This document shows positions 53,578 to 54,835 of a stretch of 62,163 bases of DNA, piece after piece. How positions within the stretch are numbered: the first letter of the stretch is position 1; each line of letters opens with the position of its first letter. The notes below the pieces were generated by a model. The model made no database searches, had not been told where the DNA came from, and saw only the letters and a program-made list of their open reading frames with translations. Position numbers and translations under genes: made by a program. This stretch comes from Deltaproteobacteria bacterium. GTDB taxonomy: Bacteria; Myxococcota_A; UBA9160; UBA6930. The stretch is taken from NCBI GenBank assembly GCA_019312665.1, contig JAFDCZ010000005.1, positions 1 through 62,163 on the forward strand, in the 5' to 3' direction.

Positions 53578-54771
53578 ATGCAGCAGATCAGCTTGGCCGA
53601 GGCCCGTGGGCTCTTCCTGGCAGGCCAGGGCCTCGCCCGGCCCCGGCCCCGGAAGACGACACCCGCTGCTCTCCAGCGCGGCATCGAGAAGCTCGGCTTC
53701 GTCCAGGTGGACTCGATCCAGGTGCTGGAACGGGCTCACCACTTGATCCTGGCAGCGCGCTTTCGCGGCTACCGACCCGCCCAATTGAAACGGTTGCTCG
53801 AGGATCGGCGCAGCCTCTTCGAACATTGGACCCACGATGCCGCCGTGCTGCCGGCGAGCCTCTTGCCCTACTGGACGTTTCGCTTCGACCGCTATGCCAC
53901 CCTGACACGGGCGCGCTTCGCGAAACGGAGCGGAGGCGCGCGCCGCTTTCCGGCATTGCTCGCGGAAGTACGCACGCGCATCGAGCAGGAGGGCCCCCTG
54001 CTCTCTTCCGATTTCGAAGCGCCGCCCGGACGTGCCAAGAGCGGCTGGTGGAGCTGGAAGCCGGCCAAACACGCGCTCGAGTATTTGTGGCGGACCGGTG
54101 AGCTCGCGATCGCAGGACGCGAGCGCTTCCAGAAGCGCTACGACCTCTTCCACCGTGTCCACCCGGAGCATCGCGACGCCCACCGCGTCGAGCTCGAGGG
54201 CTATCTCGATTGGGCGATCCCCGCAGCCCTCGAACGCCTGGGTACGGCGACGCCAAGAGAGCTTGCCCAGTTCTGGGGCGGCGTCACCGCCGCAGAGGCC
54301 CGCGGATGGTGCGAAGCCGCCCTTCGAGACGGCCGGCTGATCGAAGTCCAGCTCGAGGCAGGCGGTACGCAGCTGGCCCTTCCTGAGATCACGCGGCGGA
54401 TCGGCCGCCTCCGCAAGGCCCCGGACGAACTCAGGCTCCTATGCCCCTTCGACCCCCTCCTCCGCGATCGTCGGCGAACCGAGCGCCTCTTCGGCTTTGC
54501 CTATCGCTTCGAGGCCTTCATCCCGGAAGCCAAACGCTGCGACGGCTATTACGTCCTCCCGGTCCTGCAAGGTGACCAGTTGATCGCCCGCTTCGACCCG
54601 AAGCTCGACCGCAAAGCCAGCGTGCTCCACATCCGCAGCCTCCGCTGGGAGCCCGGCGCCCGCACCCCCCAACGATCCGAAGCCCTCGCCGAGGCCCTGA
54701 AAGAACTCGCTACCAACCTCGGCGCCGAAAAAGTCAACGGGCGGGGACGGGGTTTACAATTGACTTGTTGA
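53578..54771 (+). CDS. YcaQ-like winged-helix protein (DUF1006; interstrand-crosslink DNA glycosylase family)
   Basis: 397 aa. LGFVQVDSIQVLERAHHLILAARF...LFEHWTHDAAVLP and YVLPVLQGDQLIARFDPKLDR are family-typical. The last 14 codons lie inside the left arm of the palindrome. Confidence 0.8.
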   Translation: MQQISLAEARGLFLAGQGLARPRPRKTTPAALQRGIEKLGFVQVDSIQVLERAHHLILAARFRGYRPAQLKRLLEDRRSLFEHWTHDAAVLPASLLPYWTFRFDRYATLTRARFAKRSGGARRFPALLAEVRTRIEQEGPLLSSDFEAPPGRAKSGWWSWKPAKHALEYLWRTGELAIAGRERFQKRYDLFHRVHPEHRDAHRVELEGYLDWAIPAALERLGTATPRELAQFWGGVTAAEARGWCEAALRDGRLIEVQLEAGGTQLALPEITRRIGRLRKAPDELRLLCPFDPLLRDRRRTERLFGFAYRFEAFIPEAKRCDGYYVLPVLQGDQLIARFDPKLDRKASVLHIRSLRWEPGARTPQRSEALAEALKELATNLGAEKVNGRGRGLQLTC

Positions 54772-54835
54772 AAGGGGGCGTTGCCCCCTTTCAACAAGTC
54801 AATTGTAAACCCCGTCCCCGCCCGTTGACTTTTTC
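54727..54835. repeat. Perfect 109-nt palindrome (53-bp arms, 3-nt loop)
   Basis: I checked the base pairing position by position. 54727-54779 is the exact reverse complement of 54783-54835, and the centre GTT is at 54780-54782. The outer ends are A5/T5 runs. Confidence 0.95.

What the first reader, a model, noticed from the sequence alone, without database searches (positions are those of the whole stretch)
54727..54835. Perfect 109-nt palindrome (53-bp arms) fused to the 3' end of the YcaQ-like gene
Every base of 54727-54779 pairs with 54835-54783 around a 3-nt GTT loop, with no mismatch. That is far longer than an ordinary intrinsic terminator stem (usually about 5-15 bp), and perfect palindromes of this size tend to be unstable in bacteria (SbcCD cleavage, replication slippage). 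The left arm supplies the last 14 codons and the stop of the YcaQ-like ORF (…EKVNGRGRGLQLTC*), so the element appears to have replaced or extended the native C-terminus. The right arm ends 18 nt before the MBL hydrolase start. The arms end in A5/T5 runs and contain internal sub-palindromes (CAATTG, GGGGGC/GCCCCC). Possible explanations are an unusually strong bidirectional terminator or insulator, a foldback MITE-like or REP-like element, a protein or recombinase recognition site, or an assembly artefact. I saw no second copy in this window.
Basis: seen in the sequence. Interest (0 to 1): 0.7.

Follow-up and report, generated by a model that had tools for sequence, protein, structure and literature searches.

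The report
Mobile palindromic repeat in gene tail
The 109-base perfect hairpin is real and is one copy of a small, non-coding, multi-copy palindromic repeat that landed in the last codons of a DNA-repair gene in an uncultured marine bacterium; this kind of selfish element is already known, although this family seems undescribed.

Summary
In detail: arms 54727-54779 and 54783-54835 are 100% complementary around a 3-nt loop, far beyond chance.

It is not an assembly artefact. An independent MAG contig from a strain only 86% identical in its flanks (L090) spans the same 109-nt element between the same two genes.

It is not a locally evolved terminator. In public marine and host-associated runs, arm depth is about 50-80 times flank depth. 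At least 25 different flanking sequences join the arms. The arms are conserved and the apex varies between copies.

Orthologous loci give a history:
- An 82%-identical orthologue has an empty site (tail GADRVS*).
- Two relatives carry a 15-nt scar where about 81 nt of the centre is missing.
- The window and L090 keep the full element, with two or three mirror-image compensatory changes.

The inserted piece is about 54736-54831. The first 9 nt of the "left arm" (GAAAAAGTC, coding E-K-V) are native gene sequence. The element supplies the last 11 residues and the stop codon.

Best reading: a foldback MITE/REP-like mobile repeat. No target-site duplication was detected, and the mobilising enzyme is unknown. 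No RNA data could be obtained, so any terminator or RNase III role is only inferred.

Verdict: new member of a known kind, moderate interest.

The parts
54727..54835 (.). Whole perfect palindrome: 53-nt arms and a 3-nt loop.
54727..54735 (+). GAAAAAGTC, the native codons E-K-V of the AlkZ-like gene. It forms the outermost part of the left arm but is not part of the insertion.
   Evidence: Orthologue tails read GAE[KR]V / GADRV. The same 9 nt are present in the short-form locus L083. The empty-site locus L084 has GAT CGC GTT in this position.
54736..54831 (.). Inserted segment AAC...GTTGACTT, about 96 nt with boundaries uncertain by about 2 nt. It is defined by comparison with the empty site (L084) and the scar (L083).
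   Evidence: Removing the 15-nt scar from L083 restores GAA AAA GTC GTT TGA (EKVV*), which is colinear with L084 GAT CGC GTT TCT TGA (DRVS*).
54731..54831 (.). Repeat-family unit AAGTC...GACTT, 101 nt. These are the most common points at which other copies diverge into unrelated flanks.
   Evidence: Loose ends most often start at 54731 and end at 54831 in runs X2 and X6-X14.
54733..54765 (.). Conserved core of the left arm, GTCAACGGGCGGGGACGGGGTTTACAATTGACT. This is the highest-copy part.
   Evidence: In run X6 the depth is 3,767-6,341 here against 80 in the flank.
54797..54829 (.). Conserved core of the right arm, the mirror of 54733-54765.
54766..54796 (.). Variable apex, including the loop at 54780-54782. 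Other copies carry different loops and 1-6-nt length differences here.
   Evidence: Depth falls from 2,817 to 7 toward the loop. Many substitutions and indels are listed at 54767-54795, and every loop base varies. The loop reads AAC in L001 but GTT in L002 and in the window.
54769..54771 (+). TGA stop codon of the AlkZ-like ORF, supplied by the element.
54749..54829 (.). Roughly the segment missing from the short-form loci (L083 and a contig of run X14). It is bounded by GAC...GAC direct repeats (54746-54748 and 54827-54829).
54832..54836 (+). Right flank TTTCA. It is one base shorter than in relatives (they read GTTT[G/C]A), and the ancestral stop TGA now reads TCA. Both changes extend the base pairing with the native GAAAAA.
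53578..54771 (+). AlkZ/YcaQ-like DNA glycosylase gene, 397 aa. The Pfam domain is complete by residue 379.
54854..55912 (+). MBL-fold hydrolase gene, the next gene in a tightly packed same-strand cluster.

Best explanation
The palindrome is one copy of a small, non-coding, dispersed palindromic repeat: a foldback MITE/REP-like selfish element about 101 nt long, AAGTCAAC...GTTGACTT. It has conserved arms of about 33 nt and a variable apex, and occurs in tens of copies per genome in an uncultured marine, partly host-associated, Gram-negative lineage.

Shown: at this locus about 96 nt were inserted directly after the native codons E-K-V of an AlkZ/YcaQ-like gene. The element now supplies 11 tail residues and the stop codon, and the old stop has decayed. 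The element has been kept in two lineages that are 14% diverged, it is missing from one relative, and it is internally deleted in two others.

Inferred: it was mobilised in trans by an enzyme encoded elsewhere. The two arms are kept complementary by intra-strand templated correction or by selection. The outer 6 bp of pairing arose when the right flank was corrected to mirror the native GAAAAA. Once transcribed, the element forms a 53-bp hairpin between two same-strand genes, which could stop or attenuate transcription or be cut by RNase III. The effect on the protein is probably neutral.
For: Real, not an artefact:
- L090, an NCBI MAG contig whose flanks are 86% identical to the window, spans AlkZ, a 109-nt element and MBL.
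- Two JGI contigs each run from a unique flank across the centre of the palindrome.
- A contig in run X14 joins the AlkZ 3' end directly to the MBL 5' end. This confirms that the two genes are adjacent.

Dispersed and multi-copy:
- In run X6, arm depth is 6,341 against 80 in the flank.
- Similar ratios are seen in X7, X9, X10 and X14.
- At least 25 unrelated flanking sequences abut the arms at about 54731 and 54831.
- The apex is variable.

Insertion and deletion polymorphism:
- L084 is an empty site.
- L083 and the X14 contig carry a 15-nt scar.
- All are aligned.

Native tail and intact protein:
- Orthologues end GAE[KR]V plus 1-6 residues.
- The Pfam AlkZ-like domain is intact.

Arms co-vary:
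- Three base pairs changed on both sides, none changed on one side only, and there is one mismatch.
- L090's double variant is private to that copy; the family majority in the same run (X6) has the window-type core. Collapse of the repeat during assembly therefore cannot explain it.
- The element is 95% identical between the window and L090, while the flanks are 86% identical.

No similarity to known RNA families, plasmids or phages:
- Rfam gave only sub-threshold generic hairpin matches.
- Plasmid and phage collections gave no match.
Against: - I could not read any second copy with both flanks. The family is inferred from unitig depth and 30-nt flank consensuses of Logan contigs.
- Exact-pattern scans of the GTDB genome collection, the JGI metagenome collection and IMG/VR found nothing.
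- No target-site duplication is visible at this locus, and no transposase or RAYT gene was found in the window. Mobility is therefore inferred from copy number and presence/absence, not from a known mechanism.
- Depth ratios could include copies from other members of the community.
- There are no RNA data, so any transcriptional role is untested.
- Raw reads were not available to confirm base-level perfection of the window copy.
Confidence: 0.8

Rival explanations
1. REPIN-type element: two inverted REP units moved as a hairpin by a domesticated RAYT (TnpA-REP, HUH/Y1) transposase.
For: The form fits. It is a long hairpin made of two inverted conserved units with a variable short loop, present in tens of copies in or near intergenic DNA, with no target duplication.
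Against: The arm is not itself a REP-like short GC-rich imperfect palindrome; it has only a 7-nt internal inverted repeat (AAGTCAA/TTGACTT) around a 22-nt loop. The conserved GT[AG]G head is absent, with no GTAG or CTAC anywhere in the element. No RAYT gene is in the window. The rest of the genome could not be searched.
Confidence: 0.12
2. IS200/IS605-like (PATE-type) single-strand element that inserts 3' of a fixed pentanucleotide (AAGTC) without duplicating the target.
For: The insertion lies directly 3' of a native AAGTC, and there is no direct repeat at the ends. All other copies are also preceded by (A)AAGTC.
Against: AAGTC/GACTT is symmetrical on both sides, so it may simply be the tip of the inverted repeat. 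The element lacks the small subterminal imperfect hairpins typical of that family. No TnpA or TnpB gene was seen. The inference rests on a single filled/empty comparison.
Confidence: 0.12
3. A locally evolved regulatory hairpin, either a strong bidirectional terminator or an insulator between the AlkZ-like and MBL genes, which is not mobile.
For: It is a very stable hairpin with an A5/T5 base, lying between two same-strand genes.
Against: The same arms occur at many other sites with unrelated flanks and at 50-80 times the flank depth. Close relatives lack it or have deleted it without replacement. The consensus terminator scan does not call it. Family ends carry only 2-5 T.
Confidence: 0.04
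4. Assembly artefact: a foldback chimera, or a false join of two contigs through a repeat.
For: Short-read assemblies break inside it: L001 ends at 54821 and L002 starts at 54744. Those two contigs also show the loop in opposite orientations.
Against: An independent assembly of a different strain spans it with the same flanks. An element-less relative joins the same two genes. Apex-spanning unitigs exist in at least 8 runs.
Confidence: 0.02
5. Site-specific recombination site, such as an integron attC.
For: It is a palindromic site at the 3' end of a gene, with GTTGAC near the right end.
Against: The pairing is perfect, with no extrahelical bases. GTTGACT does not fit GTTRRRY. There is no integrase or cassette array, and the neighbours are syntenic housekeeping-type genes in relatives.
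Confidence: 0.02

Closest known systems
Correia elements (CREE/NEMIS) of Neisseria
   Same: Non-coding repeats of about 100-150 nt that are essentially long inverted repeats. They are scattered next to or into gene ends, co-transcribed, and fold into long RNA hairpins. In Neisseria these hairpins are RNase III substrates (from my own knowledge). They show presence/absence between strains.
   Different: There is no sequence similarity. Correia elements have 26-bp terminal repeats with a distinct core and a TA target duplication. Here the whole unit is a near-perfect palindrome, no duplication is seen, and the copy number is lower (tens rather than hundreds).
REPINs (REP doublets forming hairpins) mobilised by RAYT transposases
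   Same: Conserved inverted arms, a variable short loop, a hairpin of about 100 nt, multiple copies, no target duplication, and compensatory evolution of the arms.
   Different: The arms are not REP units, there is no GTAG head, and no RAYT gene is known for this organism.
Rickettsia palindromic elements (RPE)
   Same: Palindromic repeats of about 100 nt that insert into coding regions and are translated as part of the host protein without destroying it.
   Different: RPEs insert in frame inside ORFs and are read through. Here the element ends the ORF by supplying a stop codon, although one of its three frames is open throughout. There is no sequence similarity, and the host is an unrelated free-living or host-associated marine lineage.
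ERIC/IRU and YPAL elements of enterobacteria
   Same: Imperfect palindromes of 127-170 nt in transcribed intergenic regions. Their RNA hairpins alter the stability of flanking mRNA segments.
   Different: There is no sequence similarity and no Rfam match at gathering score. Those families are imperfect palindromes, whereas this copy is perfect.
Engineered and natural long palindromes in E. coli (SbcCD cleavage, slipped-strand deletion, quasipalindrome template-switch correction)
   Same: The natural history here matches the known behaviour of such palindromes. The centre is deleted between short direct repeats in two relatives. Changes are mirror-image in both arms. The flank has changed so as to lengthen the pairing.
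   Different: Those are laboratory constructs or single loci. Here the same processes are inferred from comparing wild strains and were not observed directly.

Membership tests
Bacterial MITE (non-autonomous inverted-repeat element) | Small and non-coding. | tested here: met
   The unit is 101-109 nt. Two frames hit stops and the third is open for only 35 codons. HMMER found no real protein relatives among 1.84 billion representatives.
Bacterial MITE (non-autonomous inverted-repeat element) | Terminal inverted repeats. | tested here: met
   The whole unit is an inverted repeat with a conserved arm core of about 33 nt.
Bacterial MITE (non-autonomous inverted-repeat element) | Many dispersed copies in one genome. 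| tested here: met
   The evidence is indirect. Arm-to-flank depth is about 79 in X6 and of a similar order in X7, X9, X10 and X14. At least 25 distinct flanks were seen. No second copy was read in full.
Bacterial MITE (non-autonomous inverted-repeat element) | Direct target-site duplication flanking the element. | tested here: not met
   Comparing the filled site (window, L090), the scar (L083) and the empty site (L084) shows no direct repeat of 2 nt or more at the ends. AAGTC and GACTT are inverted relative to each other, not direct. This rests on one locus, with boundaries uncertain by about 2 nt.
Bacterial MITE (non-autonomous inverted-repeat element) | Presence/absence polymorphism between related genomes. 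| tested here: met
   Full in the window and L090, scar in L083 and X14, empty in L084.
Bacterial MITE (non-autonomous inverted-repeat element) | A parent IS with matching terminal repeats and a transposase. | not testable with these tools
   The rest of the genome is not available and the window has no transposase. Some run contigs continue from an arm into another shared sequence (CTGCCYATCC...), which could be a larger element, but they could not be read.
REP/REPIN-RAYT system | The unit is a 20-40-nt imperfect palindrome with a conserved GT[AG]G head. | tested here: not met
   There is no GTAG or CTAC in the element. The arm has only a 7-nt internal inverted repeat.
REP/REPIN-RAYT system | Two inverted units forming a long hairpin with a variable loop. 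| tested here: met
REP/REPIN-RAYT system | A RAYT gene flanked by the repeats. | not testable with these tools
Intrinsic (rho-independent) terminator | A short GC-rich stem directly followed by a U-tract, with transcripts ending there. | tested here: inconclusive
   The stem is 53 bp and the only T-run (TTTTT) is itself paired. The consensus scan does not call it. No RNA runs hold the region.
Integron attC site | An imperfect palindrome with extrahelical bases, a GTTRRRY core, and an adjacent integrase or cassette array. | tested here: not met
   The pairing is perfect, the sequence is GTTGACT, and the neighbours are syntenic chromosomal genes.
Curated RNA families (Rfam 15) | A match at gathering score. 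| tested here: not met
   Only sub-threshold matches to generic hairpin models were found (miRNA precursors, plastid 3' UTR hairpin). In the whole window only a tRNA passes.

The most novel reading that the evidence does not exclude
The family may be a distinct class of hairpin-only mobile DNA that does not fit MITE or REPIN rules. It would insert next to a short sequence identical to its own tip (AAGTC) without duplicating the target. It would keep its arms perfect and even lengthen them into host DNA by intra-strand template switching. Its loop would flip between orientations. This would be consistent with a single-stranded hairpin intermediate and an unknown enzyme.
Probability: 0.1. Interest if true: 0.6.

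Novelty: new member of a known kind. Interest (0 to 1): 0.4.

Why it matters
For annotation: the C-terminus of this AlkZ-like protein is partly element-encoded, and contig breaks in related MAGs fall exactly at this repeat. Recognising the family would improve assembly and gene calls for this lineage.

For biology: the four states of one locus (empty, full, perfected, centre-deleted) give a natural example of how bacteria acquire, maintain and lose a palindrome longer than 100 bp. That process is mostly known from engineered E. coli constructs.

The mobilisation mechanism is open, because there is no target duplication and no known partner enzyme. Nothing here points to a new functional system, so the finding is moderately interesting rather than surprising.

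Tried and rejected
- Exact-pattern scans with a 20-24-nt arm core, then with a degenerate 30-nt core, found nothing in IMG/VR, GTDB representative genomes or JGI metagenome contigs. The best hits were only about 50% identical (Acidobacteriota, Planctomycetota and Myxococcota MAGs), and none of the 80 loci carries the element.
- I tried to find other copies through element-encoded peptides. The word-index search found no candidate. HMMER against 1.84 billion representatives gave two weak hits to long repetitive proteins.
- BLAST against plasmids and phages gave no match.
- A literature search for the core sequence gave only irrelevant hits.
- RNA evidence: three RNA runs from the same samples laid nothing, and no RNA run holds the region.
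- The sigma-70 promoter scan found none in or beside the element.
- A 13-nt match between the tail of the 77% orthologue (L085) and the L090 arm is no better than the best of 300 shuffles, so I do not count it as a relic.
- Related loci L085 and L087 contain no comparable palindromes.

Full report
**Observation.** The sequence is exactly as described. Positions 54727-54779 and 54783-54835 are 53-nt arms, 100% complementary, around the loop GTT. No other close inverted repeat in the 62-kb window comes near it; the next is 18 nt at 89%. Predicted folding is -71.4 kcal/mol as DNA and -117 kcal/mol as RNA in context, with z-scores of -19 and -17. The window holds no second copy, exact or degenerate. 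The element is less GC-rich (about 53%) than its surroundings (65-70%).

**Context.** The element lies in a tightly packed same-strand gene cluster. The genes are a TPP enzyme, a family III CoA-transferase, an AlkZ/YcaQ-like glycosylase (53578-54771), an MBL-fold hydrolase (54854-55912), a histidine phosphatase, DUF6285 and an APH-type kinase. The rest of the window is ordinary chromosome of a Gram-negative bacterium: cysS, secF, metK, rpoN, an LptA-like gene, pyrB, pyrD, P450s and tRNA-Arg. There is no transposase. NCBI labels the close relatives only as "bacterium".

**It is not an assembly artefact.** In one JGI assembly the locus is split. Contig L001 runs from AlkZ to 54821 and contig L002 starts at 54744 and runs into MBL, so each crosses the centre of the palindrome from a unique flank. 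Outside the palindrome these contigs differ from the window at one base in 8.3 kb.

More decisively, L090 is a contig of a different NCBI MAG whose flanking DNA is only 86% identical to the window. It spans AlkZ, a 109-nt element and MBL in one piece. A contig of run X14 and the Logan contig L083, both from strains without the full element, join the AlkZ 3' end to the MBL 5' end. The adjacency of the two genes is therefore genuine.

**It is a multi-copy dispersed repeat.** I laid Logan contigs of public marine-sediment, seawater and host-associated runs on the region.
- In run X6 the unique flanks sit at depth 80 while the arm core (54742-54759) reaches 6,341.
- The same order of excess is seen in X7, X9, X10 and X14, although their absolute depths differ about 30-fold.
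- Each element contributes two arms to the same canonical words. This means roughly 40 copies per genome-equivalent in X6. That is an upper estimate if other community members also carry the element.
- At least 25 unrelated sequences abut the arms, most often diverging at 54731 on one side and 54831 on the other. The family unit is therefore AAGTCAAC...GTTGACTT, 101 nt.
- Depth declines toward the apex, from 2,817 at 54766 to 7 at the loop. Many unitigs of 61-63 nt carry different loops and 1-6-nt apex length variants. The family thus has conserved arms and a variable apex.

**History at this locus.** The closest orthologues of the AlkZ-like protein were fetched with their DNA.
- L084 (82% protein identity) has a clean empty site: GCC GAT CGC GTT TCT TGA, giving the tail GADRVS*, followed by 24 nt and the MBL ATG.
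- More distant orthologues likewise end GAE[KR]V plus 1-6 residues.
- L083 (89% identity) reads GAA AAA GTC AAC GGG CGG GGA CTT GTT TGA. It keeps the first 22 nt of the window's left arm, followed directly by TT and the flank.
- The X14 contig is the same short form, further diverged, with synonymous changes upstream showing that it is a true orthologue.
- Removing 15 nt (AACGGGCGGGGACTT) from L083 gives EKVV*, colinear with L084's DRVS*.

Three conclusions follow. First, the insertion is about 54736-54831. Second, GAAAAAGTC (E-K-V) at the start of the "left arm" is native. Third, the short forms are full elements that have lost about 81 nt of the centre, with junctions at short direct repeats (GAC...GAC). 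An alternative path of 17-nt and 63-nt deletions at GAC and TT repeats fits the flank slightly better. Because the retained 13-16 nt (GTCAACGGGCGGGGAC) are identical to the tip of the multi-copy family, the short form cannot be the ancestral state.

**Arms co-evolve.** Against the window, L090 differs at palindrome positions 25/85 and 29/81. Both are mirror-image complementary changes. There is also one unpaired change at position 61 near the apex. The JGI contigs differ at 30/80, again mirror-image. Counting gives 3 pairs changed on both sides, none changed on one side only, and 1 mismatch.

Short-read graph assembly can homogenise repeats. However, L090's variant is private to that copy: the majority of copies in the same run (X6) have the window-type core. 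Collapse would therefore have erased the variant rather than created it.

The element is 95% identical between two strains whose flanks are 86% identical. This points to selection, templated correction or homogenisation among copies.

The right flank of the full copies (TTTTTCA) differs from the flank in L083, X14 and L084 (GTTT[G/C]A, TCTTGA) by loss of one G and a G-to-C change that destroys the old stop. Both changes extend pairing with the native GAAAAA. This fits quasipalindrome template-switch correction, but it is an inference made after seeing the data.

**How it works (commitment).**
- Shown: a mobile-type, multi-copy palindromic repeat was inserted into the last codons of the AlkZ-like gene. 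It replaces a native tail of 1-6 residues by 11 element-encoded residues plus a stop. The Pfam domain is left intact, with 328 of 329 profile positions matched and ending at residue 379.
- Inferred: it is mobilised in trans by an unidentified enzyme. No direct target duplication is visible, which argues against a classical cut-and-paste MITE. That leaves REPIN/RAYT-like or IS200/IS605-like single-strand mechanisms as candidates. The REP hallmark GTAG is absent, however.
- Inferred, with low confidence: in the polycistronic transcript the 53-bp hairpin with a U5 tail acts as a terminator or attenuator, or as an RNase III target, and so uncouples the upstream genes from the MBL-kinase genes. There are no RNA data to test this, and the promoter and terminator scans flag nothing.

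**Comparison with known families.** In form and genomic behaviour it resembles Correia elements, REPINs, ERIC/YPAL and, for its intrusion into coding sequence, Rickettsia palindromic elements. It shares sequence with none of them. It matches no Rfam family at threshold, no plasmid or phage record and no printed sequence in the searchable literature. Long perfect inverted repeats are rare but documented in bacteria (PMC13155455).

**Verdict.** This is a real feature and a new member of a known kind. Interest is moderate (0.4). The most novel reading not excluded is a hairpin-only mobile class that lacks a target duplication and perfects its own arms (probability about 0.1).

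Noticed in passing
window 54780-54782; L001 4203-4205; L002 37-39: Two contigs of the same JGI assembly show the 3-nt loop in opposite orientations (AAC in L001, GTT in L002). Each is reached from a unique flank. 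Either both orientations coexist in the population (loop flip-flop) or the assembler traversed the hairpin both ways.
   Followed up: partly
window 54766, 54768 and 54803 (junction points in contigs of runs X13 and X8): Some contigs leave the arm at these points and continue into a second shared sequence (CTGCCTATCCGACTGCCTCAGCC... / CTGCCCATCC...). This may be a larger element with the same ends, or another repeat that inserts into the palindrome. The sequence is absent from the window.
   Followed up: partly
L088 1-50 and L089 1-45: Two further MAGs, about 80% identical to the window in the parts that align, break their contigs 45-50 nt upstream of the MBL start. The upstream sequence is different (GGCCCCGCTTCTTAACTCCGGCCCCCTTCTTGACGC). 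Something else that breaks assemblies may occupy the same site in that lineage.
   Followed up: no
window 50412-52272 compared with L090; L085 5552-6511; L087 11290-14532: Gene content around the locus varies among relatives. The TPP-enzyme gene is absent in L090. A luciferase-like gene (L085), or polyphosphate kinase plus a luciferase-like gene (L087), lies between AlkZ and MBL in more distant relatives.
   Followed up: no
L085 5537-5549: The extended tail of the 77% orthologue contains CGGGGACGGAGTT, identical to 13 nt of the L090 arm and in the same reading frame. It scores no better than the best of 300 shuffles, so it may be chance or an old relic.
   Followed up: yes
window 54836-54853: There is no Shine-Dalgarno-like motif upstream of the MBL start (ACGCTACCCTCCGCCGCC ATG). 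The same C-rich leader is conserved in L083, L085 and L090.
   Followed up: no
window 41877-43826 (+): A 649-aa ORF with coding-like GC3 has no Pfam match at E <= 1e-5.
   Followed up: no
window 59943-60019 (-): tRNA-Arg (CCG), the only RNA gene in the window. This region is 92% identical to L088 and L089, whereas other regions are about 80% identical.
   Followed up: no
window 54729-54833 (+), frame 3: One reading frame is open through the whole element on either strand (KSQRAGTGFTIDLLKGGVAPFQQVNCKPRPRPLTF). Copies could therefore be tolerated in frame inside genes. No such proteins were found in the protein libraries.
   Followed up: yes
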